Positions 5,124-21,131 of a DNA stretch of 24,000 nt are shown here, one piece after another. The notes beneath the pieces were generated by a model, which worked only from the letters and a program-made list of their open reading frames with translations, did no database searches and was not told the DNA's origin. The position numbers were made by a program, and so were the translations under genes. Source of the DNA: Inquilinaceae bacterium (GTDB lineage: Bacteria > Pseudomonadota > Alphaproteobacteria > DSM-16000 > Inquilinaceae). Where the stretch lies: contig OZ252255.1 in NCBI GenBank assembly GCA_965249875.1, positions 3,352,993 through 3,376,992 on the forward strand, written 5' to 3'. How positions within the stretch are numbered: position 1 is the first letter of the stretch; each line of letters starts with the position of its first letter.

Positions 5124-5250
5124 GGCCGTCTTCCTGCCTGGTTCGCCCGTGGCATGCCGCAGATTGGCTTACGGCAAACACGTGGTGGCAGACCGTGACG
5201 GCCCAGTGAAAATGTGTAAACAAATCTCTGATTGGCGAGAGGAACGGCGG

Positions 5251-8045: not shown

Positions 8046-8465
8046 CTATTCGGGGTAGGCGCCGTACCCGGACAAGACCAATGTCTGGCCGGACGAAAGG
8101 CTGTCAAAGTCACTGCGTGAGATCACCCAAACCGGCGTGGAGGTTCCATAAAGATGATCGGCAACTTGCGCACCAATGGTGATGTTGACGTCCGGTCCGG
8201 GAAGCAGAATCGACAGGGGACCCGCGCCGGTGCGCATCGCCTCCGCCAAGCCGGCTGGCGTTCCGGCCGACCCGCGAGAACCGGGTAAGGCAAGGATCCT
8301 GCCAGCGATTTGCTGACCCGCTTGGGGATGATTGCGATCGAGAACGCGGCCGTCCGTTGGATCGAAGCCGCCCCAAAAACTGAGCGGCTCGTCGAGCTTT
8401 AACAGTGGGCCATGCGCGGTTCCCGGATTGAGAACGGTAAGCGCCTGGAAGGATGGGGCAGTCAT
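8046..8465 (-). CDS. Aconitase X swivel-domain subunit (DUF126, AcnX small subunit)
   Basis: 139 aa. PLSFWGGFDP..G and ILALPGSRGSAGTPAGLAEA are typical of DUF126. Its start overlaps the stop of the upstream DUF521 gene (8462-8465), which suggests translational coupling. Confidence 0.8.
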   Translation of the reverse strand: MTAPSFQALTVLNPGTAHGPLLKLDEPLSFWGGFDPTDGRVLDRNHPQAGQQIAGRILALPGSRGSAGTPAGLAEAMRTGAGPLSILLPGPDVNITIGAQVADHLYGTSTPVWVISRSDFDSLSSGQTLVLSGYGAYPE

Positions 8466-9784
8466 GGCGCCTCTCCCCAGAGCTTGGATGACCAGAGGGT
8501 TGGGTCACGCACGACCTCGCCTTTCACCGCGGACTCGACACAATCCCTCAGACTGCCAAAGGCGACATCGACCAGCAGCATGCCAGGTGCGTAGTAGGCC
8601 CATTTCGCCGAGTTGGTCATAACCCGGCCCCGGCAACCCTGAACGGCCGGGCCGAAATAGGTGCAGGTATCGACCAGGACCTTCGCACCAGCTCTTTCCA
8701 ATTCCCGATCCCATCCTTTGTCGGCGATGCTCTCGGCAACATGGCGACTGGTCGAAACGTAGAGGACGGTATCGGGATGGACCTTGCGACCATCGAGCTG
8801 GGTTACCAGACGTTCAAATTCCGCGAGGGAGAAATGCGGCGTACCCAACGCCACCATGTTGAGCGTGCCCTCGGCGACCGTCGAGAGAGAATCACGAGCT
8901 TGGGCGAGTTGGTCCGGCGCAATTCGGATGACCTGCTCGGGCGGGAGCCCTTGCAGCGCGACCTCAAGAGTCGGTGCTTCGGGCGTCACACCGACAATGT
9001 GAAACAGGCAGACACCGCCGGACGCTGCAGCGGCAGCCGACAATGCCTTTAGGCTGTCGGCAGGTGTGTCGGCCGGCAGGCCGGTGACGACCGGCACCCG
9101 ATTGCCGGCCAGACGGCCCATCTCGTGGCCGAGGACATGGCACAATAGCTCAGTCTCGCGCAGCGGTTCCGGGATGTCTGAAAGGTCAAACTGGATTTCA
9201 GCCCGGCGCCCGGCATCGGTATGGAAGCCGGCCAGGGGAACGCGGCGGGTCAGCCCGCAGGCAACATCGAGAAAGTCGCCATATTTGTTCGTACGGGCCC
9301 CAACCGCTGAATTGAAATAAGCCACCGCATTTGATTCACCGACGATGATGTCTTGGCCAAACCGAGGTCCATCTGGAAGCTGGTAGGGTGCGCAGGTCCA
9401 AACCGGATCGGCACCCAGTGCCAGATACAGCTCCGCCAGCTCTCGCGCTTCGGCCAACTTGTCCGCGTGGCTTTTGGGCCGAACCTCCTCCTGAATGAGG
9501 CTAACCGGAATGGTGTTGGTCCAGGCCGGGATTTCGAAGCGCGCGCCATGATCAAGCATGAACCGCGCGAAATCGAGGTGCGCCCGACCGTAATAGTGAC
9601 AGGCATCAATGTGGACGTAACAGGTTTCCAACAGCCGGGGGGCACCCATGATTGCCGCGGCCCGCACGACAAGCTGCATGGCAAACCGCAATGCCTCGCC
9701 GCCATCGCCATCGAGAAGCGCTTGTTCTTCGGCCGAAAGGGAAAGCGTGGGAATTTGGCCACTCGGAACCCGATCGGACGTCAC
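8462..9784 (-). CDS. Aconitase X catalytic subunit (DUF521, AcnX large subunit)
   Basis: 440 aa with a GTG start. DUF521-like features are HIDACHYYG, several conserved Cys (VDTCTYFGPAV) and the expected length. It is paired with the DUF126 gene as in two-subunit bacterial AcnX. Confidence 0.8.
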   Translation of the reverse strand: MTSDRVPSGQIPTLSLSAEEQALLDGDGGEALRFAMQLVVRAAAIMGAPRLLETCYVHIDACHYYGRAHLDFARFMLDHGARFEIPAWTNTIPVSLIQEEVRPKSHADKLAEARELAELYLALGADPVWTCAPYQLPDGPRFGQDIIVGESNAVAYFNSAVGARTNKYGDFLDVACGLTRRVPLAGFHTDAGRRAEIQFDLSDIPEPLRETELLCHVLGHEMGRLAGNRVPVVTGLPADTPADSLKALSAAAAASGGVCLFHIVGVTPEAPTLEVALQGLPPEQVIRIAPDQLAQARDSLSTVAEGTLNMVALGTPHFSLAEFERLVTQLDGRKVHPDTVLYVSTSRHVAESIADKGWDRELERAGAKVLVDTCTYFGPAVQGCRGRVMTNSAKWAYYAPGMLLVDVAFGSLRDCVESAVKGEVVRDPTLWSSKLWGEAP

Positions 9785-9946
9785 AACGCGACACCACTCC
9801 GCCTAAGCGGCCTGGTGTTCGCAAGGCGTTCGGTTCGGCGTTTTGCCATCCCCATGGGCGTAATCAAAGGTTCCATTGACACAAATTCCCGTATCAGTGA
9901 TGACTATCACTTTGGCGCCGCATGACAATCTGGCTTATTTGCGCCC

Positions 9947-10438
9947 ATGCACCTTACTAAAGACGCGACCCTCCCATCGATGATGTCGGGCCCACGCCAC
10001 TGGGTTCCGAGTGAGGCGGTCGCGTATTGGGACCACATTCGTGGCGACCGGGACGTGCCAACGCGCGCGGACATAGACCCGGCCGACATTCCTAAGCTGC
10101 TTCCGCACCTCGTCTTGCTGGATGTGTTCCATGAACCACGCGACTTTCGCTACCGGCTGGTGGGTACCACGGTCGAGGAGTTCATGAACAAATATTACAC
10201 CGGCGTGCGTATGAGCGAGTTGCCGCACCAGCGACCGCCCAGCCAGATCTGGAAGAGTTGCTGCACGGTCGTGGGCAGCCGCAGGCCTTTGTTCAGCGCC
10301 GTGCCTTACGTCGGTCCCAAGAAAGAGTTCGTTCGGGCAGAGGATGTCATCCTGCCACTGGCCCCGCCCAACGAAGCGGTCAATATGCTGCTGGTTGCCG
10401 TGGGTTATATCCGAAAGCACGACAACAAGCCGGTTTAA
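9947..10438 (+). CDS. PAS_5 (DUF1457) domain protein, small alphaproteobacterial-type PAS sensor
   Basis: 163 aa. AYWDHIRGDRDVPTRADIDPADIPKLLPHLVLLDV....DFRYRLVGT is the pattern I recall for Pfam PAS_5. Confidence 0.7.
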   Translation: MHLTKDATLPSMMSGPRHWVPSEAVAYWDHIRGDRDVPTRADIDPADIPKLLPHLVLLDVFHEPRDFRYRLVGTTVEEFMNKYYTGVRMSELPHQRPPSQIWKSCCTVVGSRRPLFSAVPYVGPKKEFVRAEDVILPLAPPNEAVNMLLVAVGYIRKHDNKPV

Positions 10439-10598: not shown

Positions 10599-10946
10599 AT
10601 GAACACGCCCATCGGCGGTAAACCAATCCACATTTCCGATGACGCATTCGACGCCGTCGTCGGCCAATCCGGCACAGTCCTTGTCGACTTTTGGGCGCCC
10701 TGGTGCGGTCCCTGCCAAGCCATCGCCCCGGTTCTTGATGCCTTGGCCGCCGAGTATGAAGACCGGGCGACGATTGCCAAAATCGATGTCGACCAACACC
10801 AACAGAAAGCCGCTCAGTTCGGTGTCCGATCCATCCCAACCCTGATCCTGTTCAAGGACGGCCAACCGGTTCAGACGCTGGTGGGTCTGCAAGACCGCGC
10901 GGCACTGGCCAATGCCATAGAGGCCGCACTGCCTCTCCCGGCCTAG
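10599..10946 (+). CDS. trxA: Thioredoxin
   Basis: Active site WAPWCGPC and the cis-Pro region RSIPTLILFKDG. The ATG at 10599 is preceded by the SD AGGAG (caggagaccaacATG). The longer ORF-track start at 10521 adds a non-thioredoxin leader. Confidence 0.92.
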   Translation: MNTPIGGKPIHISDDAFDAVVGQSGTVLVDFWAPWCGPCQAIAPVLDALAAEYEDRATIAKIDVDQHQQKAAQFGVRSIPTLILFKDGQPVQTLVGLQDRAALANAIEAALPLPA

Positions 10947-11731
10947 TTTACCGGTGACGTCGATGAAAGCGTTGGCACGACGTCCATTCCCCAGCTTTCC
11001 GGGCGGAAAATCAGTGCTAGAACGCGATGATAAGATGGGTCGGTCCGGCCGCCGCTTTTCACGGACCGGCCCGCACCCCCGTCGACAACCTCCGCTTCGC
11101 CCGGCCGAACCATGCAGTAGATCAGGGGGGACCAACTTGTCGTGTTGACGACCAAATCGTAGGCGCGGACAGGTTCACAAGGATCGATCACGGCAATGCT
11201 TCCCGGGGGAATCCAAGGTTTGGAAAGGCCAGCCTCAAATCGAATGGCATACGCGTTCGAGGACACCACCATCTCGGGCGGGACAGTAATGCCCTGTGAC
11301 CCCGCATAGGCTGTCCCCTCCCGGCTGACACATTCCGCATTATACAGCGGGATCGCCCGGCTAGCCTTAGCGAAGGACGCCGGTTCCGCGACCGGGCGGC
11401 GCGGTTCGCTGGGTTGAATGGGCTCGGGCAGAGTTTCGGTTTGCGCCTCAAGCAACTGAGCGATTGCTGTTACGGTGACATCGTAGGCCCGGGCCAAACG
11501 GCGGATGTGCGACAAGCTGACATTACGCTCGTCGCGCTCCAGGCGGGAAATTTCCGTCCTGGAGATACCCGATTTTTCGGCTGCCTCCACCAGGCTCAGC
11601 TGTCGGCAGCGACGGAGCCAGGCGAGCCGCTCTCCCACGGACCGGACAATGCCATCCCGAAGGGAGTCGCTTTGCCCGAGGGCTCGGTCGAGACCCTGAT
11701 TGGGGTTGTAACGGTTTTCGCTGACTGACAT
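10943..11731 (-). CDS. XRE-family HTH regulator with C-terminal S24 (LexA/CI)-like domain
   Basis: The HTH is LSLVEAAEKSGISRTEISRLERDERNVSLSHIRRLARAYDV. The C-terminal half resembles the S24 fold: GLSKPWIPPGSIAVID versus GDSMxPxxxxGDxxxVD, with a later SVKS as a possible Lys. The ATG at 11731 is preceded by the SD AGGTG at 7-nt spacing; a TTG at 11737 is also possible. Confidence 0.75.
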   Translation of the reverse strand: MSVSENRYNPNQGLDRALGQSDSLRDGIVRSVGERLAWLRRCRQLSLVEAAEKSGISRTEISRLERDERNVSLSHIRRLARAYDVTVTAIAQLLEAQTETLPEPIQPSEPRRPVAEPASFAKASRAIPLYNAECVSREGTAYAGSQGITVPPEMVVSSNAYAIRFEAGLSKPWIPPGSIAVIDPCEPVRAYDLVVNTTSWSPLIYCMVRPGEAEVVDGGAGRSVKSGGRTDPSYHRVLALIFRPESWGMDVVPTLSSTSPVN

Positions 11732-11749
11732 TCGCAAACACCTAACTTG

Positions 11750-12007
11750 CTAAGACAGATAAGTGATCTCAACAGGCAAACCAGCCGAGTCACGTCGCTG
11801 GCCGCCGGCTGCGTCGGTGCGATCATTTTGATAACGTTGGTCAATTATATCGCGAAGTTCGTCCAAGGCGGAAACCGGAAGTTTTCCGGCATCGACGGCT
11901 TCTGCACAGCGGCGAAGCAGATCAAGGCTGTCTTCCCAGTCCCCACCGGTCTTCAGGTCATCCCTGGTCAGGCAATGTCCCCGAGGAAGCGATAGCTTTT
12001 GCGCCAT
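11750..12007 (-). CDS. Hypothetical small acidic protein (85 aa from the ATG at 12007); coding status uncertain
   Basis: It is on the same strand as luxR and the XRE gene and ends 18 bp before the XRE start. The translation looks like a soluble helical protein (DWEDSLDLLRRCAEAVDAGKLPVSALDELRDIIDQRYQ). Against this, only about half of third positions are G/C by hand count, and there is no clear SD. Confidence 0.35.
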   Translation of the reverse strand: MAQKLSLPRGHCLTRDDLKTGGDWEDSLDLLRRCAEAVDAGKLPVSALDELRDIIDQRYQNDRTDAAGGQRRDSAGLPVEITYLS

Positions 12008-12182
12008 TTTTGAATTGAACCCATTTGTGACTACACCGTCACAAGTGGACTCCATCTCGCTATGCGCGAAAATGGCTGAAACTGCCAAGTTTGGGGAAAT
12101 ATCCCGTGCGAAGCACCGAATTATCCCTTTGCATTGGCGCAAAGAGGTAATTTGCCGTCAAACACGTACCGGATGATGCCGG

Positions 12183-12935
12183 TCAGTCGATATCGATCAG
12201 ACCCAATGTGACGGCCTTTACGGCCGCATGCGCGCGCGTCTGCGCATTGAGCTTCAACTGAGCCGCTGCGACATGGCGCGCCACCGTGTGTTCGGAGATC
12301 GTCAAAATGTCACCGATCATAGGCGCGGACTTTCCTGCCGCGATCCAGCGTAGGCATTCCTGCTCTCGCGGGGTGAGATTGATTTGACTGTCGGTCTCCT
12401 CCTCGACATTCGGCTGGAACAATTCGAACGCCCTTTCGTGCGCGTGATACCCCAGCCAGAGTAAGAGCGGCTCATACAGCTCAATCAGTTCCTTTCGGTC
12501 GCGGGCCGAACCGTCCGGCACCGCGGAAAACAAGGCAAAGGAGGTCGGCCCCCTTACCGGGACCGAGATGCCGGAGCCGATCTTGAATTCGCTTGCCTCG
12601 TTGAAAACAAGCGAAGAGGTCGGTCCGGCAGCAGAAAAATCGATCCTGTCCCAGACTACCGGTGCCGTGGCCTTACGCGCCAGCGCATGTACCGGGTCGT
12701 GGTGGATGTAGTTGCTTTGTTCATAATGGTTGATCCACTCAGCCGGGTAGTCGGTGAAGAACGTGTGAAGAAAATCACCCACGCCAGTCATTCGGACAAG
12801 ATGGTAGGCCGAGCTGTGGAAGCCAATTTCCGCAAGAAAATCAGTAACAACCGATTCCAACTCCTCGACACTTGAGGCGTTGTCGACGGCGTTTCTTATT
12901 CGCCCCGGGACAAACGGCAACAGCGGTTGGGTCAT
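12183..12935 (-). CDS. LuxR-family quorum-sensing receptor (autoinducer-binding domain + C-terminal HTH)
   Basis: The N-terminal domain has the canonical acyl-HSL pocket pattern W-x3-Y-x8-DP-x13-W (W67, Y71, D80, P81, W95) and GSGISVPV. The C-terminal GerE/LuxR HTH is LTPREQECLRWIAAGKSAPMIGDILTISEHTVARHV. The SD GGAGG sits 7 nt before the ATG. Confidence 0.92.
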   Translation of the reverse strand: MTQPLLPFVPGRIRNAVDNASSVEELESVVTDFLAEIGFHSSAYHLVRMTGVGDFLHTFFTDYPAEWINHYEQSNYIHHDPVHALARKATAPVVWDRIDFSAAGPTSSLVFNEASEFKIGSGISVPVRGPTSFALFSAVPDGSARDRKELIELYEPLLLWLGYHAHERAFELFQPNVEEETDSQINLTPREQECLRWIAAGKSAPMIGDILTISEHTVARHVAAAQLKLNAQTRAHAAVKAVTLGLIDID

Positions 12936-13030
12936 TGCTCAGCCTCCGTTCCTGTAGGAGCGCGAACCTCAAAAATTCGACGAGCTAATTGGTACACGAA
13001 CATACTGAATCTCGCAAAAAGGGCAGCGGG

Positions 13031-13046
13031 ACGGGAAAATTCCCGT
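13031..13046. promoter_or_regulatory. Candidate lux-box-like operator, dyad ACGGGAA-AA-TTCCCGT (copy 1)
   Basis: Perfect 7-bp inverted arms separated by 2 bp, located in the luxR / P450-luxI divergent intergenic region. It is part of a 17-bp direct repeat with copy 2, 30 bp away. Confidence 0.45.
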
Positions 13047-13060
13047 TTTATGGTTAAAAC

Positions 13061-13076
13061 CAGGGATAATTCCCGT
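13061..13076. promoter_or_regulatory. Candidate lux-box-like operator, degenerate dyad CAGGGAT-AA-TTCCCGT (copy 2)
   Basis: The right arm is identical to copy 1. The left arm matches at 5 of 7 positions. The right edge is 52 bp upstream of the P450-luxI ATG. Confidence 0.4.
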
Positions 13077-13127
13077 TTGAAGTCTTTGTTCCCCTGTGGC
13101 GACGAGTCCTGCAGGGAGAATTCAGCA

Positions 13128-15140
13128 ATGATGAGCGCCGCTGTTCAAGGTATTTCTAACGCTCATGACCATCCGCAAATCAAGGGGTATCCGCTTCTCG
13201 GCGCCTTACCGGAAATGTGGCGGGACCCGCCTGGGTTTCTGGTTCGCGCGGCTTGCGACGTTGGCGGTGTAACGCGGTTTCGGCTTGGACCAGAGAACGC
13301 CGTCCTGGTTGCCGATCCGAACGGCGTGGAACATGTCCTGCGCGCCAACCAAGCCAACTACACAAAGACAAAAATGGCCGACAAGCTGGCGCCCATCCTG
13401 GGCAACGGTGTTGCCATTGCAAACGGCAATGACTGGGTGCGGTCACGCAAAGCGGTCCAGCGGTCTTTTACCAAAGACCAGGTCGACGGTTGGGTGGGCG
13501 AGATGGATGAAGCCATCGACGCATTCTTTGACCGCGATCTTCAGGCTGGTTCGATCAAGGACGTGAACGGTTTCTCCGGCCGGCTGACCCTGACAGTTCT
13601 GTTCAAAACCGTTTTCGATATTGACGACAGCGAAGCCGTTCACCGGTTCACGGATCGCATCGAAAGGCTGCAGCAGGCGCTGAGCCAGATCATGTGGTCG
13701 GTAAATCCCTGGGCGGCAACTCGGCTGACAAAATGCGGCCGTGAGCTGCATCGTTACTCGGCTGAAGTCCGCCAGATGGTCACGGACTACGCGACAGAGG
13801 CCCTGGAAAATGATCGGGAGGGAACGGTTGCCAGACTGAGCCGATATCTCGGGACGGACATGGACGAACCGGTCGATCTAACAGATCTGGTCGACCAGTT
13901 GATCACCATATTCATCGCCGGTCACGAAACCACCGGCAACACACTTGCTTGGGCAATCAACCTTTTGGCCCGCAACTCCGCACTGCAGCAGACGTTGCGC
14001 GAAGAAGCGCTGATGACCCTGCCGCTGGATCGGCCAGCCACCACCCAGATCGCCCGGCAGCTCAAGCAGACCGAAGCATTCCTGCAGGAAGTCATGCGCC
14101 TTTATCCCAGCGCCTGGTGGTTCGTCCGAACGGCGGTCGAGGATGACGAGGTCTGTGGTGTCCCGATCAAATCAGGTGACGTGGTGATCATCGCCCCCTA
14201 TGCGACCCATCGCCTACCGGACTATTGGCCAAACCCGGACACATTCGATCCCGAGCGTTTTCTAACCGATCGGCCGGCCCATCGGTTTGCCTACATCCCC
14301 TTCGGCGCCGGCCCGCGGACCTGCCCCGGTGGCCACTTCGCCATGGCCGAAATGATGCTGGCCGTCGGCCGAGCCCTGATCCGCAGTGAGTTCTCGGCCG
14401 CATCGACGGACGTCCCGAACTGTCAGGCGCTGGTAACGTTGCGGCCGGCCGAGGGCGAGGCGATCACCGTGCGAGACCATGCCTGCGCCTATTGGATCAA
14501 GCAATGCGACGTGGGTGGACATGCGCTGGTTGAGGCCGCGATGCGCATGCGCAAACGCATCTTCGTCGACGGGCTCGGCTGGCCAGTGGATTTTGACGAT
14601 GATGGCCGCGAACGGGACGAGTTCGATTGCGATGATGCCAACTACCTGGTCGTGATCGAAAAGGGCACGGTCAAGACGTGCGGCCGCGCCCTGCCAGCCT
14701 GCCGGCCAACGCTGCTCTATGACGTCTATGGTCACATCATCGAGGATGACGAGCGGAAAGAACCGAGGCGGACCATGTGGGAAGGCTCCCGCATGGCGAC
14801 CTCGCCCGAACTGAATTCCAAAGACAGCCGGCGCTGGATCTGGGAGTTGGTTTATCAGTCCGCCAGGCAAGCCATCCGCGAGGGTGTGACAGAAATGGTG
14901 GCTGCATCCGATCCGGTGCTCTATCGCGTCCTGCGGCGGGTGGGCGCCAACCCCCAGCCGATGGGCGATGTGGTCGTCGACGAGCATGGCTTCAAAGTGA
15001 TGGCGGTTCGTATCAATGCCGATTTCTCGACGCTGAAGTCGATGCACGACGTGTCCAAGAGCCCGCCGCTGGAAGCCAGGGTGGTGTTTGGCCGGCGCAT
15101 CGATGTCACAACGCCGGCAATCGAAAAGAAGGCTGCTTAG
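13128..15140 (+). CDS. Bifunctional fusion protein: N-terminal cytochrome P450 (to ~14480) fused in frame to a C-terminal LuxI-type acyl-homoserine-lactone synthase (~14484-15140)
   Basis: P450 signatures are AGHETTG (13917-13937), the ExxR EVMR (14088-14099) and the heme loop FGAGPRTCPG (14301-14330). LuxI signatures are RKRIFVDGLGW (14550-14582), ERDEFD (14610-14627), RALPACRPTL (14685-14714) and WEGSR (14778-14792). The start was chosen at ATG 13128, which has the SD AGGGAGA 8 nt upstream. The ORF-track start at 12927 would overlap the luxR start. Confidence 0.9.
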   Translation: MMSAAVQGISNAHDHPQIKGYPLLGALPEMWRDPPGFLVRAACDVGGVTRFRLGPENAVLVADPNGVEHVLRANQANYTKTKMADKLAPILGNGVAIANGNDWVRSRKAVQRSFTKDQVDGWVGEMDEAIDAFFDRDLQAGSIKDVNGFSGRLTLTVLFKTVFDIDDSEAVHRFTDRIERLQQALSQIMWSVNPWAATRLTKCGRELHRYSAEVRQMVTDYATEALENDREGTVARLSRYLGTDMDEPVDLTDLVDQLITIFIAGHETTGNTLAWAINLLARNSALQQTLREEALMTLPLDRPATTQIARQLKQTEAFLQEVMRLYPSAWWFVRTAVEDDEVCGVPIKSGDVVIIAPYATHRLPDYWPNPDTFDPERFLTDRPAHRFAYIPFGAGPRTCPGGHFAMAEMMLAVGRALIRSEFSAASTDVPNCQALVTLRPAEGEAITVRDHACAYWIKQCDVGGHALVEAAMRMRKRIFVDGLGWPVDFDDDGRERDEFDCDDANYLVVIEKGTVKTCGRALPACRPTLLYDVYGHIIEDDERKEPRRTMWEGSRMATSPELNSKDSRRWIWELVYQSARQAIREGVTEMVAASDPVLYRVLRRVGANPQPMGDVVVDEHGFKVMAVRINADFSTLKSMHDVSKSPPLEARVVFGRRIDVTTPAIEKKAA

Positions 15141-15163
15141 CTCCACCCCTATGGCCACTGAGA

Positions 15164-15200
15164 GGCCCGCGCTTCGACACAAGCGCGGGCCTTTGCGATT
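15164..15200 (+). terminator. Rho-independent-type terminator after the P450-luxI gene
   Basis: Perfect 11-bp GC-rich stem GGCCCGCGCTT / AAGCGCGGGCC with a 6-nt loop (cgacac), followed by TTTGCGATT. It starts 24 bp after the stop codon. The T-tract is short. Confidence 0.7.
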
Positions 15201-15310
15201 GTAGGGCCAGGCCCTCTTTCGATCACATGTGCACGAATGTCATCAAGTCATCGGCGCACGCAATGCGATTTCGGTTGGGTTAGCCTGCTCCCATAAAGTT
15301 GGGGGTAAGC

Positions 15311-17953
15311 GTGACCAAAGAAGACTATTTCCACTATGACGCGGCGACCTCGCCGCACGCAATTTTCCCACTAGGCGGCATTGGGGCCGGCGGGATCGGG
15401 ATTGGGGCCGACGGCCGGTTGCAGGATTGGGAAATTTACAATCGGCCGTCAAAGGGCAGCGTCAACGGGTTTTCCCACTTCGCAGTTCGAGCCGAGCGCG
15501 CCGGAGAAGTTCTCGACACCCGTATCCTGAACGGTCCGTTCAACGGCAACCGCAGCGGCGTGCTGCATGGGGCCGATTTCAACACCTTCGGCTTTGGCCC
15601 GCGCCGGCAAGAGCTGACCGGGTTACCACATTTTGCCCATTCCTCGATCACCGGCCCCTACCCCGTGGCCGATCTATCGTTCTCGGATGAGCGGTTTCCC
15701 GGCGCCGTGTCCATGCGGGCGATGAGCCCTTTCATTCCTATGGACGATCGCTCCTCGTCCATGCCGGTCGCCCAGTTCGAGATCGAAATTGCCAATACCG
15801 GACAGGATGATCTGGACTACACGTTTTTCGGATGCATCGGCTTTGAGTTCGAAAATGCCCGTGTCAGCACATCCACCGATCGCGGCTTGGTTCTGACCGG
15901 CGCAACGGTGTGCGAGCCATCGTCCACAAAATATGCCGAAATCTCGCTGGCCACAGACCATCCCGACACCAGCCATCAACGCCATCTCTTCCGCGGCGCT
16001 TGGTTCGACACGATGGAGGTGTATTGGGCCGATATCTCGCGCGGCGGTCGGTTGAGGGATCGGTTTTACGGCGAAACCGATGAGTTCGTCCCCCTTAACA
16101 AAGGCCCGCATGTAGAACACAGCATCGCGGCAGCGCATTTGAAAGTGCCGGCTGGTCAATCGAAAACCGTTCGGTTTGCTATCGGCTGGTACGTGCCCAA
16201 CGTCAAGAAGACATGGGTATCTCACTTCGCGCTGCTGAATGAGAATCCCAGCGTCGATCAGGTTTGGAAGAACTACTACGCCACCCAATGGAAAAGCGCC
16301 TCCCACGTGCTTGAGGAGGTGTTCGACCGTTGGGACGAACTCGCCCAACAGACCCAGTCCTTTCGGGACAGCCTGGCTGCCTCCACTCTGCCTCTGCCGG
16401 TATTGGATGCAGTCTCGGCAAACCTGTCGATCGCCAAGTCGCCTACGGCCTTGCGCCTTGAAGACGGCACCTTCTATGGCTGGGAGGGCTGCCATCCGAC
16501 CGCCGGCTGTTGCGAGGGATCCTGCACCCATGTCTGGAACTATCAGCAGGCTTTACCCTTCCTGTTTCCGGCACTCGAGCGCTCGATGCGGGAAGCGGAC
16601 TATTTCGAAAATCAGATTCCCGAGACCGGTGGCATGGCCTTTCGCATGGCCCTGCCCAAAGGCGTCGGCATCAGTACCGACCGCCCGTGCGCCGATGGCC
16701 AGTTCGGCAATGTTCTAAAGGCATATCGGGACTGGAAGCTGTGCGGAGATACGGATTGGCTGCGCAAGATCTGGCCGAATGTCACGGCGGCGATCGACTA
16801 TGCCTGGGCCGAGGGCAACTATGATCGCTGGGATCCGGATCAGACCGGCGTCCTGACCGGCCGCCAGCACCACACACTGGATATGGAGCTGTTCGGGGCC
16901 AATTCCTGGCTGACCGGCTTTTATTTGGGGGCCTTGCTGGCCGGGGCCGAGATGGCGGACGCGTTAGGTGAGCAGACGCGCGCCGAACGCTACCGGGACA
17001 TATTCAGCCGCGGCAAGAAATGGGTGACCGATAATCTGTTCAACGGCCACTATTTCGTCCAGCAAGTCAGCCTGAACGACAAGTCTCAATTGGACCAGTT
17101 CAATGTGCTTGGCGGTTCAATCAGCTATCTGTCGGGCAACATCTATGAGCAATATTGGAGCGATGAGCACGGCGAACTGAAATACCAGATTGCTGACGGG
17201 TGCGAGATCGATCAAGTGGTCGCCCAATGGCATGCGCACCTGTACGGCCTGGGCGAGATATTCGACCCCAGCCAGTTCGCTTCTGCCGTCAAGTCAATCT
17301 ACGAACACAATTTCAAACCGCGTCTGGGTGACGTACCCAACCCCTGCCGGGTTTTTGGCATGGAAGAGGAAAGCGGAACCCTGATGTGCGCCTGGCCCGA
17401 CGGTAGTTCGCGCCCAGCGATCCCCGTTCCCTATGCCCAGGAAACCATGCACGGCTTCGAATACGCCGCCGGTTGCCAGTTGATGATGATCGGTGAAGTC
17501 GACAAAGGCATCGACGTGTTCGCCGGCGTGCGAGACCGCTATCGCGGCCATAACCGCAATCCCTGGAACGAGATCGAGTGTGGTTCGAACTATGCCCGTT
17601 CGATGTCCAGCTATGCCGCGCTGATCACGCTGTCAGGCCTGCAGTTCGATGGGGTTAAGGGTGAACTGTCCTTCGACCCAACCGTGCACCGCAACGGTGA
17701 ATTCCAGTCTTTCTGGTCCAACGGCAATGCCTGGGGAACCGTCTCGATCGGTGGTGGCAAGGCCGAGCTAACGGTGCTGGCAGGAACACTGTCCATCGCC
17801 AAGCTGGGCCTATGCGGCCAGTCCTACGGCCTGAGTGAGCTCATTCATCTAGACGGAGCCAACGCGAAGGCGGGGCGCGCCGAGTTTTCAGCCGGTTCCA
17901 CCCTTGCCTTTGCCAACCCGGACCTGCGCCTGACCGATGGCCATGCGGTCTAG
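15311..17953 (+). CDS. GH116 family glycoside hydrolase (GBA2 / non-lysosomal glucosylceramidase-like beta-glucosidase)
   Basis: The N-terminal GBA2_N pattern is FPLGGIGAGGIGIGADGRLQDWEIYNRP. The C-terminal (alpha/alpha)6 catalytic domain contains FYGWEGC...THVWNYQQALPFLFPAL and HHTLDMELFGANSWLTGFYLGAL. The preferred start is GTG 15311 (GGGGG 5 nt upstream); TTG 15299 is also possible. Confidence 0.85.
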   Translation: MTKEDYFHYDAATSPHAIFPLGGIGAGGIGIGADGRLQDWEIYNRPSKGSVNGFSHFAVRAERAGEVLDTRILNGPFNGNRSGVLHGADFNTFGFGPRRQELTGLPHFAHSSITGPYPVADLSFSDERFPGAVSMRAMSPFIPMDDRSSSMPVAQFEIEIANTGQDDLDYTFFGCIGFEFENARVSTSTDRGLVLTGATVCEPSSTKYAEISLATDHPDTSHQRHLFRGAWFDTMEVYWADISRGGRLRDRFYGETDEFVPLNKGPHVEHSIAAAHLKVPAGQSKTVRFAIGWYVPNVKKTWVSHFALLNENPSVDQVWKNYYATQWKSASHVLEEVFDRWDELAQQTQSFRDSLAASTLPLPVLDAVSANLSIAKSPTALRLEDGTFYGWEGCHPTAGCCEGSCTHVWNYQQALPFLFPALERSMREADYFENQIPETGGMAFRMALPKGVGISTDRPCADGQFGNVLKAYRDWKLCGDTDWLRKIWPNVTAAIDYAWAEGNYDRWDPDQTGVLTGRQHHTLDMELFGANSWLTGFYLGALLAGAEMADALGEQTRAERYRDIFSRGKKWVTDNLFNGHYFVQQVSLNDKSQLDQFNVLGGSISYLSGNIYEQYWSDEHGELKYQIADGCEIDQVVAQWHAHLYGLGEIFDPSQFASAVKSIYEHNFKPRLGDVPNPCRVFGMEEESGTLMCAWPDGSSRPAIPVPYAQETMHGFEYAAGCQLMMIGEVDKGIDVFAGVRDRYRGHNRNPWNEIECGSNYARSMSSYAALITLSGLQFDGVKGELSFDPTVHRNGEFQSFWSNGNAWGTVSIGGGKAELTVLAGTLSIAKLGLCGQSYGLSELIHLDGANAKAGRAEFSAGSTLAFANPDLRLTDGHAV

Positions 17954-17986
17954 CGCAAAGCCAACAAACCAAAAAAGGAGGAAACA

Positions 17987-19267
17987 ATGAGGAAGACACT
18001 CGCTGCGCTGACCGGTGCAGCCATGATGTTGAGCGGAGCGGCACTGGCCCAGCCGGCCGCAGATACGGAAGCAACGTTGAAGATCGTCCAATGGGTCAAT
18101 GATCAGATCATTGCCAGCACGGACAAGGCGATCGCGCGTTTTGCCGAGAAATATCCGAATGTCACCATTGAAACCCAGTATGTGCCCATCGGCGGCGGCG
18201 CCTGGGGCGAATACAACAACGCCTTCCTCAATCAAATTGCCGCGGGCGACACGCCGGACATCATTGCAGCCGCCATCGAGGGGTTTGCCGAGATGGCGTC
18301 GAAAGGCGTGTTGATCGATCTGGACACCATCACAGCCGGCGACCCGCAGGCTGAAGCGGTATTGTCGGGGATCGATGAAAACCTGCTGAACGGTATGCGC
18401 ACGCGGCCCTCGGGCGAGTTGAACTTTTTCCCGACCGAGTGGAACAACATCGTCATGTTCTACAACAAGGACATGTTCGATGCGGCCGGTGTCGACTATC
18501 CGCACGCCGACTGGACGTGGGACGAGTTTGTCGAAACGGCCAAGGCGCTGACGATCAGGGACGACAGCGGAAATCCGACCCAGTTCGGCTATGTGCTGCC
18601 CGGCTTCAATTTCGGCATGCAGCCCTGGTTCTTCACGAACAATGCCGCGATCCTGGATGAAGAATGGCGCGAACCCACCGTTACGACGGCAGAGTATCGC
18701 GAGACGCTGGCGTTCCTGCACAGCCTGATCCACGAGCACAAAGTGTCACCCGCTTATGAAGGCGGCGTGGGCACCGAGAAATTTGCCGCCGGACAGGTCG
18801 CCATGTTCGCGGCCGGCCACTGGCCCATCCCAGAAATCATCGAAGGCGGGCTGGAGAATGTCGGCGTGCAACACATGCCGCAAAACAAGCGCAAAGCAAC
18901 CGTCTTCGGCATCGGCGGCTTGGCGATCACCAAAGACTCGCCGAACAAGGAACTGGCCTGGGAGTTCGTCAAGGAAATGACGGGCGATGAATATCAGCAG
19001 GAACTGGCGGATTCGAAACGGTCGATCCCATCGGCCCGCAAGCAGGCGACCGCGCCGGACTATGTTGCCTGGCCGGATAATTCGGAAATCTTCTACGAAA
19101 CGGCGGCGACGGCAATACCGGTCCCCTCCCCGCCAAATTTCGCCCAGGTTCAGGAGATTTTCGAGCGGCACATGGGCGCGTTCCTGAACGACGACCAGGA
19201 TCTCGATACGACGATTTCTGAAATGGATCGGGAGCTGAAACGCTCCATGTCTAGGGCCTATCGATAG
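17987..19267 (+). CDS. Sugar ABC transporter substrate-binding protein (CUT1 / SBP family 1)
   Basis: Strong SD AAGGAGG before the ATG. The Sec signal peptide is MRKTLAALTGAAMMLSGAALAQP. Length and composition are typical of MalE-like SBPs (WNNIVMFYNKDMF, FAAGQVAMFAAGHW). Confidence 0.9.
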   Translation: MRKTLAALTGAAMMLSGAALAQPAADTEATLKIVQWVNDQIIASTDKAIARFAEKYPNVTIETQYVPIGGGAWGEYNNAFLNQIAAGDTPDIIAAAIEGFAEMASKGVLIDLDTITAGDPQAEAVLSGIDENLLNGMRTRPSGELNFFPTEWNNIVMFYNKDMFDAAGVDYPHADWTWDEFVETAKALTIRDDSGNPTQFGYVLPGFNFGMQPWFFTNNAAILDEEWREPTVTTAEYRETLAFLHSLIHEHKVSPAYEGGVGTEKFAAGQVAMFAAGHWPIPEIIEGGLENVGVQHMPQNKRKATVFGIGGLAITKDSPNKELAWEFVKEMTGDEYQQELADSKRSIPSARKQATAPDYVAWPDNSEIFYETAATAIPVPSPPNFAQVQEIFERHMGAFLNDDQDLDTTISEMDRELKRSMSRAYR

Positions 19268-19278
19268 GCTACCATGCA

Positions 19279-19305
19279 CCCGGCGCCGCCCTCCCCGGCG
19301 CCGGG
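19279..19305 (+). promoter_or_regulatory. Intercistronic GC-rich stem-loop between the SBP and permease genes
   Basis: Perfect 9-bp stem CCCGGCGCC / GGCGCCGGG with a 9-nt loop, 12 nt after the SBP stop. The downstream T run is weak (acatgTTTGT). Its position fits a partial terminator or mRNA stabiliser of the kind often seen after SBP genes. Confidence 0.4.
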
Positions 19306-19326
19306 ACATGTTTGTAGGGCAAGGAC

Positions 19327-20214: not shown

Positions 20215-20218
20215 AGAT

Positions 20219-21106: not shown

Positions 21107-21131
21107 CCAAAGAAAAACCGATGACAACACC

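What the first reader, a model, noticed from the sequence alone, without database searches (positions are those of the whole stretch)
13128..15140. One ORF fuses a complete cytochrome P450 to a complete LuxI-type acyl-HSL synthase
SEEN IN SEQUENCE:
- One uninterrupted frame encodes 670 aa from the SD-preceded ATG.
- The first ~450 aa carry the three diagnostic P450 signatures in the correct order. These are the I-helix AGHETTG (13917-13937), the K-helix ExxR EVMR (14088-14099) and the heme-thiolate loop FGAGPRTCPG (14301-14330, Cys codon 14322-14324).
- After the typical P450 C-terminal strand (...LRPAEGEAITVRDH) the same frame runs straight into a LuxI/Autoind_synth domain. By eye this aligns colinearly with TraI.
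  - MRKRIFVDGLGWPV matches HRLRATVFGGRLEWDV.
  - GRERDEFDCDDANYLVVIEKGTVKTCGRALPACRPTLL matches GEERDQYDNFKPSYLLAITDSGRVAGCVRLLPACGPTML.
  - WEGSRMA matches VESSRFC.
- The invariant LuxI-family residues all appear to be present (Arg, Phe, Trp, Glu, Asp, Asp, Arg, then the Glu-x-Ser-Arg cluster).
- The gene is divergent from a canonical luxR.

ESTABLISHED KNOWLEDGE:
- LuxI enzymes condense SAM with acyl-ACP or acyl/aryl-CoA.
- P450 BioI (CYP107H1) oxidises acyl chains while they are tethered to ACP.
- CYP102A1 hydroxylates acyl-HSLs at sub-terminal carbons.
- The Arg in FxxGxRxCxG and the GNG..W..R....F region resemble E-class fatty-acid-hydroxylase-type P450s rather than the FGxGxHxCxG bacterial B class.

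INFERENCE:
- The protein may make an oxidised signal. Options include an in-chain or omega-x hydroxylated, epoxidised or chain-cleaved acyl-HSL, or a ring-hydroxylated aryl-HSL by analogy to cinnamoyl- versus p-coumaroyl-HSL.
- Alternatively it may couple signal synthesis to signal inactivation.
- No ferredoxin or ferredoxin reductase is encoded in the window, so redox partners must be supplied in trans.
- I do not recall a P450-LuxI architecture being described. That novelty claim is from memory only and needs checking.
Basis: partly seen in the sequence, partly recalled or inferred. Interest (0 to 1): 0.93.

Follow-up and report, generated by a model that had tools for sequence, protein, structure and literature searches.

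The report
P450 fused to quorum-signal synthase
One gene really does join a complete cytochrome P450 oxygenase to a complete LuxI-type acyl-homoserine-lactone synthase, next to its LuxR receptor. This rare, conserved and apparently undescribed enzyme probably makes an oxygenated quorum-sensing signal.

Summary
Window 13128..15140 (+) is one uninterrupted 670-aa ORF.

It is not a sequencing artefact.
- About 13-17 distinct homologues (74-37% identity) share the architecture. They come from Limimonas halophila (Rhodospirillales) and alphaproteobacterial MAGs or metagenomes.
- All share a linker-less conserved junction, invariant catalytic residues in both halves, congruent domain trees, and dN/dS of about 0.11-0.15 in both halves.
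- The architecture is rare: only 3 intact fusion clusters at 50% identity among 1.84 billion representatives.

Every locus with flanks has the same module: XRE regulator, small ORF, LuxR, then the divergent P450-LuxI gene. No ferredoxin or reductase is linked.

The nearest solved P450 structure is CYP184A1, a fatty-acid epoxidase solved with oleic acid, followed by P450 BM3. The LuxI half is closest to TofI and lacks the Trp-Trp "indole platform" of CoA-type synthases, so acyl-ACP use is predicted.

A related stand-alone P450 lies in an unfused luxR-luxI-P450 operon, which is an independent link.

Best reading (inferred, about 0.58): a bifunctional enzyme making a remote-oxygenated fatty acyl-HSL. 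Ten literature searches found no description. I rate it a new variant of a known kind.

The parts
13128..15140 (+). P450-LuxI fusion gene (670 aa plus stop)
   Evidence: Uninterrupted frame. Both Pfam domains score above their cut-offs. 13 homologous clusters share the architecture.
13185..14438 (+). Cytochrome P450 domain (aa 20-437). I-helix AGHETTG at 13917-13937, ExxR at 14088-14099, heme-thiolate loop FGAGPRTCPG at 14301-14330 (Cys399 at 14322-14324).
   Evidence: PF00067, E 4e-68. CYP184A1 7wzl matches at E 4.7e-59 by sequence and TM 0.85 with 32% identity by Foldseek. The motifs are invariant in 13 homologues.
14439..14525 (+). Junction (aa 438-466). The conserved LRPxxG end of the P450 runs without a linker into the first strand of the LuxI fold.
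   Evidence: T437, L438, R439, P440, G443 and G463 are invariant. In the AF2 model strand 446-450 is followed directly by strand 452-458, and pTM is 0.86 for the whole protein.
14526..15023 (+). LuxI-type acyl-HSL synthase domain (aa 467-632)
   Evidence: PF00765, E 5.6e-20. TofI 3p2f matches at E 1.2e-20. The AF2 model of this half has pLDDT 90 and matches TofI, RpaI, BjaI, MesI, LasI and EsaI best. The canonical residues are invariant.
15024..15137 (+). C-terminal extension (aa 633-670), with a conserved VVFGRR strand in the closer homologues. It ends in -AA.
   Evidence: Alignment A1. AF2 predicts a strand at 650-654 and a disordered last 10 residues.
13033..13078 (+). Two 16-nt direct repeats, GGGAAAATTCCCGTTT and GGGATAATTCCCGTTT, 30 nt apart in the luxR/fusion intergenic region. 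Candidate operator for LuxR or the XRE protein.
   Evidence: 3 matches against 0.35 expected, and 0 of 100 shuffles reached 3. The same pair is present in the 74% orthologue locus L081. The function is inferred.
13113..13119 (+). Shine-Dalgarno-like AGGGAGA, 8 nt before the ATG
   Evidence: Read directly from the sequence.
12183..12935 (-). Cognate LuxR-type receptor, transcribed divergently
   Evidence: Autoind_bind and GerE domains. QscR, CviR and LasR are the best solved relatives. An orthologue (38-68% identity) is adjacent and divergent in all 8 homologous loci tested and in L086-L088 and L094-L097.
11750..12010 (-). Small ORF between the XRE gene and luxR. The start is uncertain; the product is about 75-98 aa in homologues.
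   Evidence: Genes are called at the same position in L081, L082, L084 and L085. Conservation is weak and there is no Pfam hit.
10943..11737 (-). XRE-family (HTH_3/HTH_31) regulator conserved with the module
   Evidence: Pfam hits. Homologues of 29-50% identity lie at the same position in all 8 loci and in L094-L097. The HTH resembles R-M controller C proteins (C.BclI, E 4e-6).
15161..15194 (+). 14-bp GC-rich hairpin 21 nt after the stop codon, followed by UUUGCGAUU. Probable terminator, which would make the fusion gene monocistronic.
   Evidence: Minimum free energy -28 kcal/mol, z -4.3, and 0 of 200 shuffles fold as well.

Best explanation
The gene encodes a rigid two-domain enzyme. Its C-terminal LuxI domain condenses S-adenosylmethionine with a fatty acyl-ACP to make an acyl-homoserine lactone. 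Its N-terminal P450 domain is a fatty-acid-type monooxygenase that draws electrons from a ferredoxin/reductase pair encoded elsewhere. It oxygenates the acyl chain at a position that fatty-acid synthesis cannot supply, by in-chain or sub-terminal hydroxylation or by epoxidation of a double bond. The oxygenation could occur on the acyl-ACP before transfer or on the nascent AHL. The oxygenated AHL is then sensed by the divergently encoded LuxR, with an XRE regulator and a small protein as extra controls.

Shown here: both domains, their catalytic residues, the conserved junction, the conserved gene module, the rarity, and the purifying selection.

Inferred: the chemistry, the order of the two reactions, the substrate chain, and the role of the regulators.
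For: Both domains look functional.
- Both domains are intact and score well above the Pfam cut-offs.
- Cys399, E321/R324 and the I-helix H266, T268, T269 and G270 are invariant (A264 and E267 in at least 90% of members). LuxI R475, F479, W485, E495, D497, D500, R520, E552 and R555 are invariant across 13 homologues down to 36% identity.
- dN/dS is 0.11-0.15 in each half for two pairs.

The fusion is a single old unit.
- The domain trees give the same main groupings, and pairwise identities of the two halves correlate (r = 0.73).
- The fusion P450s form a clade with 100/100 bootstrap support.
- There is no linker, and pTM is 0.86 for the whole model.

The P450 is of the fatty-acid type.
- The best structures are CYP184A1 apo and with oleic acid (TM 0.85 and 0.81, 32% identity), followed by dozens of P450 BM3 heme domains, including complexes with N-decanoyl-HSL.
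- CYP184A1 is described as a fatty-acid-metabolising epoxidase (PMC11214959, citing Kim 2022).

The LuxI half is predicted to be ACP-type.
- TofI scores 77 bits against 40 for RpaI and 35 for BjaI.
- The Trp-Trp indole platform that underlies CoA preference (PMC8188788) aligns to V597-L598/Y599 in the window. No Trp occurs there in any family member.

It is a signalling system. A canonical AHL-type LuxR is adjacent and divergent in every locus.

There is an independent link between this P450 family and AHL synthesis. P0014 is 37% identical and lies outside the fusion clade. It sits 25 nt downstream of a stand-alone luxI in a luxR-luxI-P450 operon on L092.

There are precedents for the idea.
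- Doberva 2017 hypothesised P450 tailoring to explain poly-hydroxylated long-chain AHLs.
- luxI-phyH oxygenase linkage is known in sphingomonads and was seen on L091.
Against: - No product, heme spectrum or activity is known for any member.
- No ferredoxin or reductase is linked in any locus, so catalytic competence in vivo is assumed.
The linker-less LuxI domain could even cover the P450's redox-partner face.
- The P450 is only 32% identical to CYP184A1, and CYP97 (carotenoid) and CYP170A1 (terpenoid) are also close. The substrate class is therefore suggestive, not established.
- One homologue (P0186) has a decayed P450 half with an intact LuxI half. P450 chemistry is therefore dispensable in at least one lineage.
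- The Ser of the LuxI Glu-x-Ser-Arg cluster is Ala in most members.
- None of the 151 other stand-alone relatives of the P450 has a LuxI nearby.
Confidence: 0.58

Rival explanations
1. Built-in signal turnover. The LuxI domain makes an ordinary AHL and the fused P450 oxidises it to a less active form, as P450 BM3 does with AHLs. This would sharpen or time-limit the signal, or tie its half-life to oxygen and reducing power.
For: The P450 half is structurally close to P450 BM3, whose heme domain has been crystallised with N-decanoyl-HSL. BM3's oxidation of AHLs is established knowledge (Chowdhary 2007, cited). P0186 shows that the LuxI half can persist without a working P450.
Against: A stoichiometric, rigid 1:1 fusion of maker and destroyer would be futile. 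Known quorum-quenching enzymes are separately regulated. The arrangement has been conserved under purifying selection across 36-74% identity, always with a dedicated LuxR. That fits a specific signal better than self-quenching.
Confidence: 0.1
2. Precursor-forming P450. The P450 creates the acyl donor rather than decorating it. One route is BioI-like C-C cleavage of a long acyl-ACP to an omega-carboxy or omega-oxo acyl-ACP. Another is oxidation of a non-fatty (terpenoid, carotenoid-derived or aromatic) acid that is then activated and used by the LuxI domain.
For: BioI (CYP107H1) acts on acyl-ACP (established knowledge, from memory). CYP97 carotenoid hydroxylases and CYP170A1 are among the closest solved relatives. 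By Foldseek the LuxI half matches CoA-dependent RpaI, BjaI and MesI almost as well as TofI.
Against: The CoA 'indole platform' Trp-Trp is absent in the whole family. No acyl-CoA ligase is conserved in the module. The top structural neighbours bind straight-chain fatty acids. P0186 keeps an intact LuxI half without a working P450, which is awkward if the P450 supplies the only substrate.
Confidence: 0.15
3. Non-catalytic heme domain. The P450 half acts as a gas or redox sensor, or merely as a scaffold, and modulates LuxI activity without oxidising any substrate.
For: No redox partner is linked in any locus. The LuxI domain abuts the P450 C-terminus without a linker. P0186 retains a decayed P450 scaffold.
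Against: The oxygen-activation machinery is conserved in all intact members: the I-helix acid-alcohol pair (T268 invariant, E267 in at least 90%), ExxR, the R377 of the PERF motif (DPERF in the window), and the Cys loop. The P450 half shows the same strong purifying selection as the LuxI half. Most bacterial P450s have unlinked redox partners (established knowledge).
Confidence: 0.05
4. Co-expression only. The two activities are unrelated, and the fusion merely places a P450 of other function under quorum control.
For: 151 stand-alone relatives of this P450 have no LuxI nearby, so the P450 family has functions outside quorum sensing.
Against: The junction is conserved and linker-less, and the model is confident as one body. 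The two halves co-diverge. A second, independent luxI-P450 linkage exists on L092.
Confidence: 0.07

Closest known systems
Canonical LuxI/LuxR acyl-ACP-dependent systems (TofI/TofR of Burkholderia glumae, TraI/TraR)
   Same: The LuxI fold and all canonical catalytic residues are present. TofI is the best solved match (E 1.2e-20; TMt 0.84). A cognate LuxR with Autoind_bind and GerE domains is adjacent. There is no Trp-Trp CoA platform.
   Different: The synthase is the C-terminal third of a 670-aa protein. The nearest stand-alone LuxI found is 32% identical or less. The TraI NCBIfam model scores 65 bits against a cut-off of 292. The module also carries an XRE regulator and a small ORF rather than rsaL, rsaM or traM.
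CYP184A1 (Streptomyces avermitilis fatty-acid epoxidase) and CYP102A1/P450 BM3
   Same: These are the best sequence and structure matches to the P450 half. CYP184A1 was solved with oleic acid. BM3 hydroxylates fatty acids and has been crystallised with N-decanoyl-HSL. Both share the FxxGxRxCxG type of Cys loop.
   Different: Identity is only 32% to CYP184A1 and 22-24% to BM3. BM3's fusion partner is a reductase that feeds it electrons. Here the partner is a biosynthetic enzyme and no reductase is fused or linked.
BioI (CYP107H1), a P450 acting on acyl-ACP (from memory, not tested here)
   Same: It is a precedent for a P450 oxidising an acyl chain while the chain is tethered to ACP. ACP is the predicted donor for this LuxI domain.
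   Different: BioI belongs to a different P450 class (CYP107). It is stand-alone, cleaves the chain, and serves biotin synthesis rather than signalling.
luxR-luxI-phyH topologies in Sphingomonadaceae (Gan et al. 2015, PMC4288048)
   Same: An oxygenase gene is habitually linked to luxI. This was also seen here on L091, where the stop and start codons overlap.
   Different: The oxygenase is an Fe/2-oxoglutarate PhyH-type enzyme, not a P450. It is a separate gene, not a fusion, and no role in signal chemistry is stated in the passages I read.
Unfused luxR-luxI-P450 operon on metagenome contig L092
   Same: The P450 is of the same broad family (37% identity). It lies 25 nt downstream of a LuxI gene, with a LuxR gene upstream.
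   Different: The genes are separate, and their order (LuxI then P450) is the reverse of the domain order in the fusion. This P450 lies outside the fusion clade, and its LuxI is only 27% identical. It is therefore probably an independent association.
Hypothesised P450 tailoring of long-chain AHLs in Rhodobacteraceae strain MOLA 401 (Doberva et al. 2017, PMC5479921)
   Same: The idea is the same: a P450 adds hydroxyl groups to AHL acyl chains beyond what the synthase delivers.
   Different: That is a hypothesis resting on chemistry, with an unlinked P450 gene. No fusion or genetic linkage was reported.

Membership tests
Cytochrome P450 superfamily (PF00067) | Profile match above the curated cut-off over the whole domain | tested here: met
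   230.7 bits against a cut-off of 22.8, covering aa 20-437 and profile positions 6-452 of 462.
Cytochrome P450 superfamily (PF00067) | Heme-thiolate loop FxxGxxxCxG, K-helix ExxR, and the I-helix acid-alcohol pair | tested here: met
   FGAGPRTCPG (Cys399), E321-x-x-R324 and AGHETTG (E267/T268) are present. C399, E321, R324 and T268 are invariant in 13 homologues, and E267 is present in at least 90%.
Cytochrome P450 superfamily (PF00067) | P450 fold | tested here: met
   The AF2 model has pLDDT 82.8. Foldseek gives TMt 0.85 to CYP184A1 and 0.83-0.84 to BM3.
Cytochrome P450 superfamily (PF00067) | Heme binding with a 450-nm Fe(II)-CO absorbance peak | not testable with these tools
   This needs purified protein.
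CYP184 family (nomenclature rule of at least 40% identity, from memory) | At least 40% amino-acid identity to a named member | tested here: not met
   Identity to CYP184A1 is 32% over about 456 alignment columns. The domain therefore does not belong to the family of its closest solved relative. Its relation to unsolved named CYP families was not tested.
Self-sufficient P450 fusions (CYP102 or CYP116B type) | Fused FMN/FAD or FMN/Fe-S reductase domain | tested here: not met
   Only the p450 and Autoind_synth domains are found. No Fe-S Cys motifs occur anywhere in the window.
LuxI-type acyl-HSL synthase (PF00765) | Profile match above the curated cut-off | tested here: met
   72.1 bits against a cut-off of 24, covering aa 467-632 and profile positions 9-176 of 183.
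LuxI-type acyl-HSL synthase (PF00765) | Conserved N-terminal SAM-binding and catalytic residues (Arg, Phe, Trp, Glu/Asp, Asp, Asp, Arg, Glu-x-Ser-Arg) | tested here: met
   R475, F479, W485, E495, D497, D500, R520, E552 and R555 are invariant in the family. S554 is present in the window but is Ala in most homologues.
LuxI-type acyl-HSL synthase (PF00765) | AHL-synthase fold rather than a generic GNAT or an N-acyl-amino-acid synthase | tested here: met
   The model of this half (pLDDT 90) matches TofI, RpaI, BjaI, MesI, LasI and EsaI first (E 1e-15 to 1e-8). Generic GNATs follow at E of about 5e-7 to 1e-5, and FeeM comes only at E 2e-5.
LuxI-type acyl-HSL synthase (PF00765) | Production of an acyl-homoserine lactone | not testable with these tools
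   This needs expression and LC-MS/MS or a biosensor.
TraI equivalog (NCBIfam NF010408 / NF052393) | Score above the curated cut-off | tested here: not met
   65 bits against 292 and 56 bits against 250 for the LuxI half alone. The three other family members tested score similarly low.
CoA-dependent LuxI subclass (BjaI, RpaI) | Trp-Trp 'indole platform' (BjaI W142/W143, RpaI W146/W147) | tested here: not met
   The aligned positions are V597-L598/Y599 in the window. The whole family reads SDP-V/I-M/L-E/Y/H there, with no Trp. The definition of the feature is taken from PMC8188788.
LuxR-type AHL receptor (the neighbouring gene) | Autoind_bind domain plus a GerE HTH domain, adjacent to the synthase | tested here: met
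   E 1.3e-30 and E 1.9e-15. QscR, CviR and LasR are the best solved relatives. The gene is adjacent and divergent in every homologous locus.

The most novel reading that the evidence does not exclude
The fusion defines an unrecognised class of quorum signals: acyl-HSLs oxygenated at remote (in-chain or omega-x) carbons, as hydroxy or epoxy groups. The P450 would make them while the acyl chain is still held by ACP or by the synthase domain. Signal output would then depend on O2 and on cellular reducing power, giving an oxygen- or redox-gated quorum signal read by a dedicated LuxR.
Probability: 0.35. Interest if true: 0.85.

Novelty: new variant of a known kind. Interest (0 to 1): 0.72.

Why it matters
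AHL diversity is currently explained by chain length, the C3 oxidation state and unsaturation inherited from fatty-acid synthesis, plus a few CoA-derived acyl groups. A synthase with a hard-wired P450 would add a further principle: dedicated oxidative tailoring built into the signal synthase.

It offers a genetically defined entry point to the poly-hydroxylated AHLs that chemists have reported without a known enzyme (PMC5479921). It could supply orthogonal signal/receptor pairs for synthetic biology. It would also be a type of P450 fusion partner I found no description of, a biosynthetic enzyme rather than a reductase.

The experiment is simple. At least one cultured carrier exists (Limimonas halophila), and the gene, its LuxR and the candidate operator are all in hand.

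Tried and rejected
- Artefact (frameshift or mis-assembly joining two genes). Rejected. The architecture recurs in 13 clusters at 90% identity, from isolates, MAGs and several metagenome sources. All have a conserved linker-less junction.
- Longer ORF from TTG 12927 or ATG 13050. Rejected. Homologues' N-termini align at the 13128 Met. L082 and L083 have no upstream in-frame start. The apparent similarity upstream ('RDNS') is just the translated repeat box.
- Linked redox partners. None found in the window or conserved in any homologous locus. The Fer2_4/Fer2_BFD genes in L082 and L084 belong to a DAO/opine-oxidase-like operon with an ABC transporter, and they are absent elsewhere.
- Identifying the source organism. 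This failed. Exact look-ups of the fusion protein and of the LuxR found nothing. The genome scan did not return the window itself.
- Searching with the LuxI half alone as a single sequence returned nothing, a limitation of the word index. The profile search found only stand-alone LuxIs of 32% identity or less.
- Un-fused ancestors next to the closest stand-alone LuxIs. Not found. L089 is a luxR-rsaM(DUF4902)-luxI locus, L090 is plain luxR-luxI, and L091 is luxR-luxI-phyH.
- P0014 (the L092 operon) as the sister of the fusion clade. Rejected by the NJ tree, with 0 of 100 bootstraps. P0152 falls inside the clade and is probably a truncated or frame-shifted fusion.
- A classical 20-bp lux-box palindrome in the intergenic regions. 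None found, only the GGGAnnnnTCCC repeats in the window/L081 subclade and a different box in others.


Full report
1. The observation

The frame is open from 12927 to 15140 on the + strand. The ATG at 13128 is preceded by AGGGAGA at 13113-13119 and gives a 670-aa product. This start is the right one. The N-termini of twelve homologues align at this Met. Two homologous loci have no in-frame start further upstream.

Pfam finds PF00067 (p450) over aa 20-437 (230.7 bits, E 4e-68). It finds PF00765 (Autoind_synth) over aa 467-632 (72.1 bits, E 5.6e-20). Both are far above their curated cut-offs.

- AGHETTG at nt 13917-13937.
- EVMR at nt 14088-14099.
- FGAGPRTCPG at nt 14301-14330, with Cys399 at 14322-14324.

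When the C-terminal half is numbered from aa 452, the residues invariant in the 10 aligned LuxI halves fall at R24, F28, W34, E44, D46, D49, R69, E101 and R104. From memory, that is the canonical LuxI numbering.

The gene on the other strand (12183..12935) is a canonical AHL-type LuxR. It has Autoind_bind (E 1.3e-30) and GerE (E 1.9e-15) domains, and its best solved relatives are QscR, CviR and LasR.

The window has no ferredoxin or reductase. None appears among the ORFs of 150 aa or more that I scanned as likely genes. No Fe-S cysteine motif appears in any reading-frame segment of 45 aa or more.

2. It is a real, conserved and rare protein family

A search of 5.8 billion protein clusters returned 13 clusters, including the window's own, that carry both domains in the same order. 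Identities to the window protein run from 74% down to 37%. From the fourteenth hit on, only stand-alone P450s appear.

Named sources are Limimonas halophila (Rhodospirillales, Rhodovibrionaceae), a Rhodospirillaceae MAG and several Alphaproteobacteria MAGs. One contig is binned as 'Anaerolineae'. It carries a protein at least 90% identical to that of an alphaproteobacterial MAG, so the contig is probably mis-binned. A scan of JGI metagenomes added four loci (L094-L097).

An exhaustive profile search of 1.84 billion 50%-identity representatives found only three intact fusion representatives: P0006, P0001 and P0013. It also found one degenerate one, P0186. The architecture is therefore rare.

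In the alignment of the 13 proteins:
- The P450 residues are conserved. C399, E321, R324, T268, T269, H266, G265, G270, R377, F392, G393, G395, R397 and P400 are invariant, and A264 and E267 are present in at least 90% of members.
- The LuxI residues are invariant (R475, F479, W485, D490, R494, E495, D497, D500, R520, E552, R555).
- The junction itself is conserved (T437, L438, R439, P440, G443 and G463 are invariant; V436 in at least 90%).

There is no linker. In the AlphaFold2 model (pLDDT 82.8, pTM 0.86) the last P450 strand (aa 446-450) is followed at once by the first LuxI strand (aa 452-458).

Several results point to one old fusion evolving as a unit under purifying selection:
- Pairwise identities of the two halves correlate (r = 0.73). 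Their neighbour-joining trees give the same main groups.
- The fusion P450s, together with P0152, form a clade in 100 of 100 bootstraps. P0152 is probably a truncated or frame-shifted fusion.
- dN/dS is 0.15 (P450) and 0.13 (LuxI) for the window against L081, and 0.11 and 0.13 for L082 against L084. dS exceeds 1 in these pairs, so the ratios are approximate.

3. Surroundings

Every homologous locus with enough flank has a divergent LuxR (38-68% identical to the window's). All but one have, downstream of that LuxR, an identifiable XRE-family HTH_3/HTH_31 regulator of about 230-280 aa (29-50% identical). On L088 a 279-aa protein with no Pfam hit occupies that position. In the window this regulator is 10943..11737 (-). 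Several loci also have a small ORF of 75-98 aa between the two. In the window this ORF lies within 11750..12142 (-), and its conservation is weak.

Nothing else is conserved. In particular, no ferredoxin, reductase or acyl-CoA ligase recurs.

The 192-nt luxR/fusion intergenic region holds two 16-nt direct repeats, 30 nt apart: GGGAAAATTCCCGTTT and GGGATAATTCCCGTTT. Three matches were found against 0.35 expected by chance. The same pair occurs in the 74% orthologue locus L081, while other subclades carry a different conserved box. I take the repeats as a candidate operator. That is an inference.

A 14-bp hairpin lies 21 nt after the stop codon (-28 kcal/mol, z -4.3). It separates the gene from the downstream GH116, sugar ABC transporter and AraC cluster. 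That cluster is not conserved with the module.

4. What each half resembles

P450 half.
- By sequence, the best solved relative is 7wzl (E 4.7e-59). CYP97A3, CYP170A1, CYP3A4, CYP51, CYP46A1 and CYP102A1 follow.
- Foldseek on the model identifies 7wzl and 7wzm as CYP184A1 of Streptomyces avermitilis, the latter in complex with oleic acid (TM 0.85 and 0.81, 32% identity). Dozens of P450 BM3 heme domains follow, including complexes with N-decanoyl-homoserine lactone.
- CYP184A1 is described as a fatty-acid-metabolising enzyme with a narrow, elongated pocket. The primary paper is titled 'fatty acid epoxidation' (PMC11214959, citing Kim et al. 2022).
- At 32% identity the domain is not a CYP184 family member.
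- Some stand-alone relatives of this P450 are fused to PAP2, PEMT or methyltransferase domains. This is a weak hint at lipid substrates.

LuxI half.
- TofI, an acyl-ACP-type C8-HSL synthase, is the best solved match (77 bits, E 1.2e-20). RpaI scores 40 bits, BjaI 35, LasI 28 and EsaI 23.
- The AF2 model of this half alone (pLDDT 90) hits all solved AHL synthases first (TofI TMt 0.84). Generic GNATs come next, and FeeM comes only far below.
- A published discriminator for CoA-dependent enzymes is the Trp-Trp 'indole platform' (BjaI W142/143, RpaI W146/147; PMC8188788). In the HMMER alignments these residues fall on V597-L598/Y599 of the window protein. The whole family reads SDP-V/I-M/L-E/Y/H there, with no Trp. 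I therefore predict an acyl-ACP donor.
- The domain is not a TraI equivalog (65 bits against a cut-off of 292). The nearest stand-alone LuxI found is 32% identical or less.

5. An independent link between this P450 family and AHL synthesis

P0014 is the closest stand-alone P450 in the 90% database (37% identity). It lies 25 nt downstream of a stand-alone luxI, with a luxR upstream, on metagenome contig L092 (luxR 4519-5247, luxI 5361-5975, P450 6001-7332).

In the tree P0014 lies outside the fusion clade. Its LuxI is only 27% identical to the window's LuxI half, and its LuxR only 31% identical. The gene order is also the reverse of the domain order in the fusion. This looks like a second, independent recruitment of the same P450 family by a LuxI/LuxR system. 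That argues for a functional relation between the two activities.

The link is not general. None of 151 other stand-alone relatives has a LuxI or an AHL-type LuxR within the 6-10 kb flanks that were fetched.

Another oxygenase-LuxI linkage turned up on L091, as luxR-luxI-phyH with overlapping stop and start codons. This matches the topology known in sphingomonads (PMC4288048).

6. Mechanism

Best explanation (confidence about 0.58). The protein is a bifunctional enzyme whose LuxI domain makes a fatty acyl-HSL from SAM and acyl-ACP. Its P450 domain adds oxygen to the acyl chain at a remote carbon, by hydroxylation or by epoxidation of a double bond. Electrons come from partners encoded elsewhere. 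The oxygenated AHL is the ligand of the adjacent LuxR.

- Shown: the domains, the residues, the junction, the module, the selection, and the nearest relatives.
- Inferred: the chemistry, and whether oxidation occurs on acyl-ACP (BioI-like, from memory) or on the product (BM3-like).

I could not inspect the inter-domain geometry, because model coordinates are not exposed. I therefore cannot say whether the two active sites communicate.

One homologue, P0186, has lost the Cys loop and the I-helix motif but keeps an intact LuxI half. This suggests the P450 decorates the signal rather than supplying the only substrate. It is a single metagenomic sequence, so the point is weak.

The rivals are built-in signal turnover (0.10), a precursor-forming P450 (0.15), a non-catalytic sensor or scaffold (0.05) and mere co-expression (0.07). 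The evidence for and against each is in the rivals section.

7. Novelty

Ten full-text searches over 8 million papers and preprints found no description of a P450-LuxI fusion. The nearest idea in print is the hypothesis that a P450 tailors poly-hydroxylated long-chain AHLs in strain MOLA 401 (PMC5479921). That library misses most subscription-journal papers, so absence from it is not proof.

The sequences themselves are public, and JGI's automatic annotation already names both domains. Both parts are well-known kinds, and the system is a LuxI/LuxR circuit. I therefore classify it as a new variant of a known kind, with interest 0.72.

The finding is solid and rare, and it is directly testable in a cultured organism. 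It could define a new class of AHL signals. Its chemistry is still unproven.

Noticed in passing
window 10943-12935 (-); L081-L088, L094-L097: The fusion gene always travels with LuxR. In all but one locus an identifiable XRE-family HTH regulator of about 230-280 aa is also present (L088 has an unannotated 279-aa protein at that position). Its HTH resembles restriction-modification controller C proteins (C.BclI, E 4e-6). A poorly conserved small ORF of 75-98 aa often lies between the two genes. This may be a repressor/anti-activator pair, comparable (from memory) to QseC/QseM of Mesorhizobium.
   Followed up: partly
window 13033-13048 and 13063-13078; weaker site at 11872-11887 (-): Two 16-nt direct repeats, GGGAWAATTCCCGTTT, each an internal GGGAnnnnTCCC palindrome, lie 30 nt apart upstream of the fusion gene. 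The pair is conserved in L081. Other subclades have a different conserved box (AGATAGGCGAGATTC). None looks like a classical 20-bp lux box.
   Followed up: partly
window 15126-15137 (last residues KKAA); alignment A1: Ten of 13 fusion proteins end in -AA (KKAA, KRAA, AAAA, AVAA, ADAA, NAA, SAA). The rest end in -VA, -SA or -AS. This recalls ssrA-like C-terminal degrons and might mean regulated proteolysis of the synthase.
   Followed up: no
P0186 (487 aa, metagenomic representative): This family member has a decayed P450 half: the Cys loop is deleted and the I-helix reads SQYETMR. Its LuxI half is intact and 37-45% identical to the others. The P450 activity was apparently lost while the synthase was kept.
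   Followed up: partly
L092 4519-7332: An unfused luxR-luxI-P450 operon has a P450 of the same broad family (37% identity) but outside the fusion clade. It appears to be an independent association of this P450 family with AHL synthesis.
   Followed up: partly
L091 5154-7457: A luxR-luxI-phyH operon, in which the phytanoyl-CoA-dioxygenase-type gene overlaps the luxI stop codon. This is the topology described for sphingomonads, and it is another oxygenase tied to a LuxI.
   Followed up: partly
P0005-P0008 (alignment A1): The P450-half and LuxI-half trees pair these four proteins differently. P0008 has a P0006-like P450 half and a P0007-like LuxI half. The cause is either recombination at the junction or chimeric metagenome assemblies on short contigs.
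   Followed up: no
L001 (JANQQD010000106.1, labelled Anaerolineae MAG): This contig carries a fusion protein at least 90% identical to that of an Alphaproteobacteria MAG (the P0004 cluster), with the same LuxR and XRE neighbours. The contig is probably mis-binned.
   Followed up: partly
P0174, P0214, P0244, P0251: Stand-alone relatives of the P450 occur fused at their N-termini to a bifunctional-nuclease domain, a methyltransferase, PEMT (phospholipid methyltransferase) and a PAP2 phosphatase. These are other unusual fusions in the same P450 family, some of them lipid-related.
   Followed up: no
window 15299-23143 (+): Downstream, after a strong hairpin (15161-15194), lies a GH116 glycosidase gene. 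A sugar-type ABC transporter (SBP_bac_1, two permeases, a MalK-like ATPase) and an AraC regulator follow. None of this is conserved with the quorum-sensing module.
   Followed up: partly
window 8462-10438: Upstream of the module are an aconitase-X (AcnX) gene (8462..9784, -) and a PAS_5 domain protein (9947..10438, +). They have no counterpart in the other loci.
   Followed up: no
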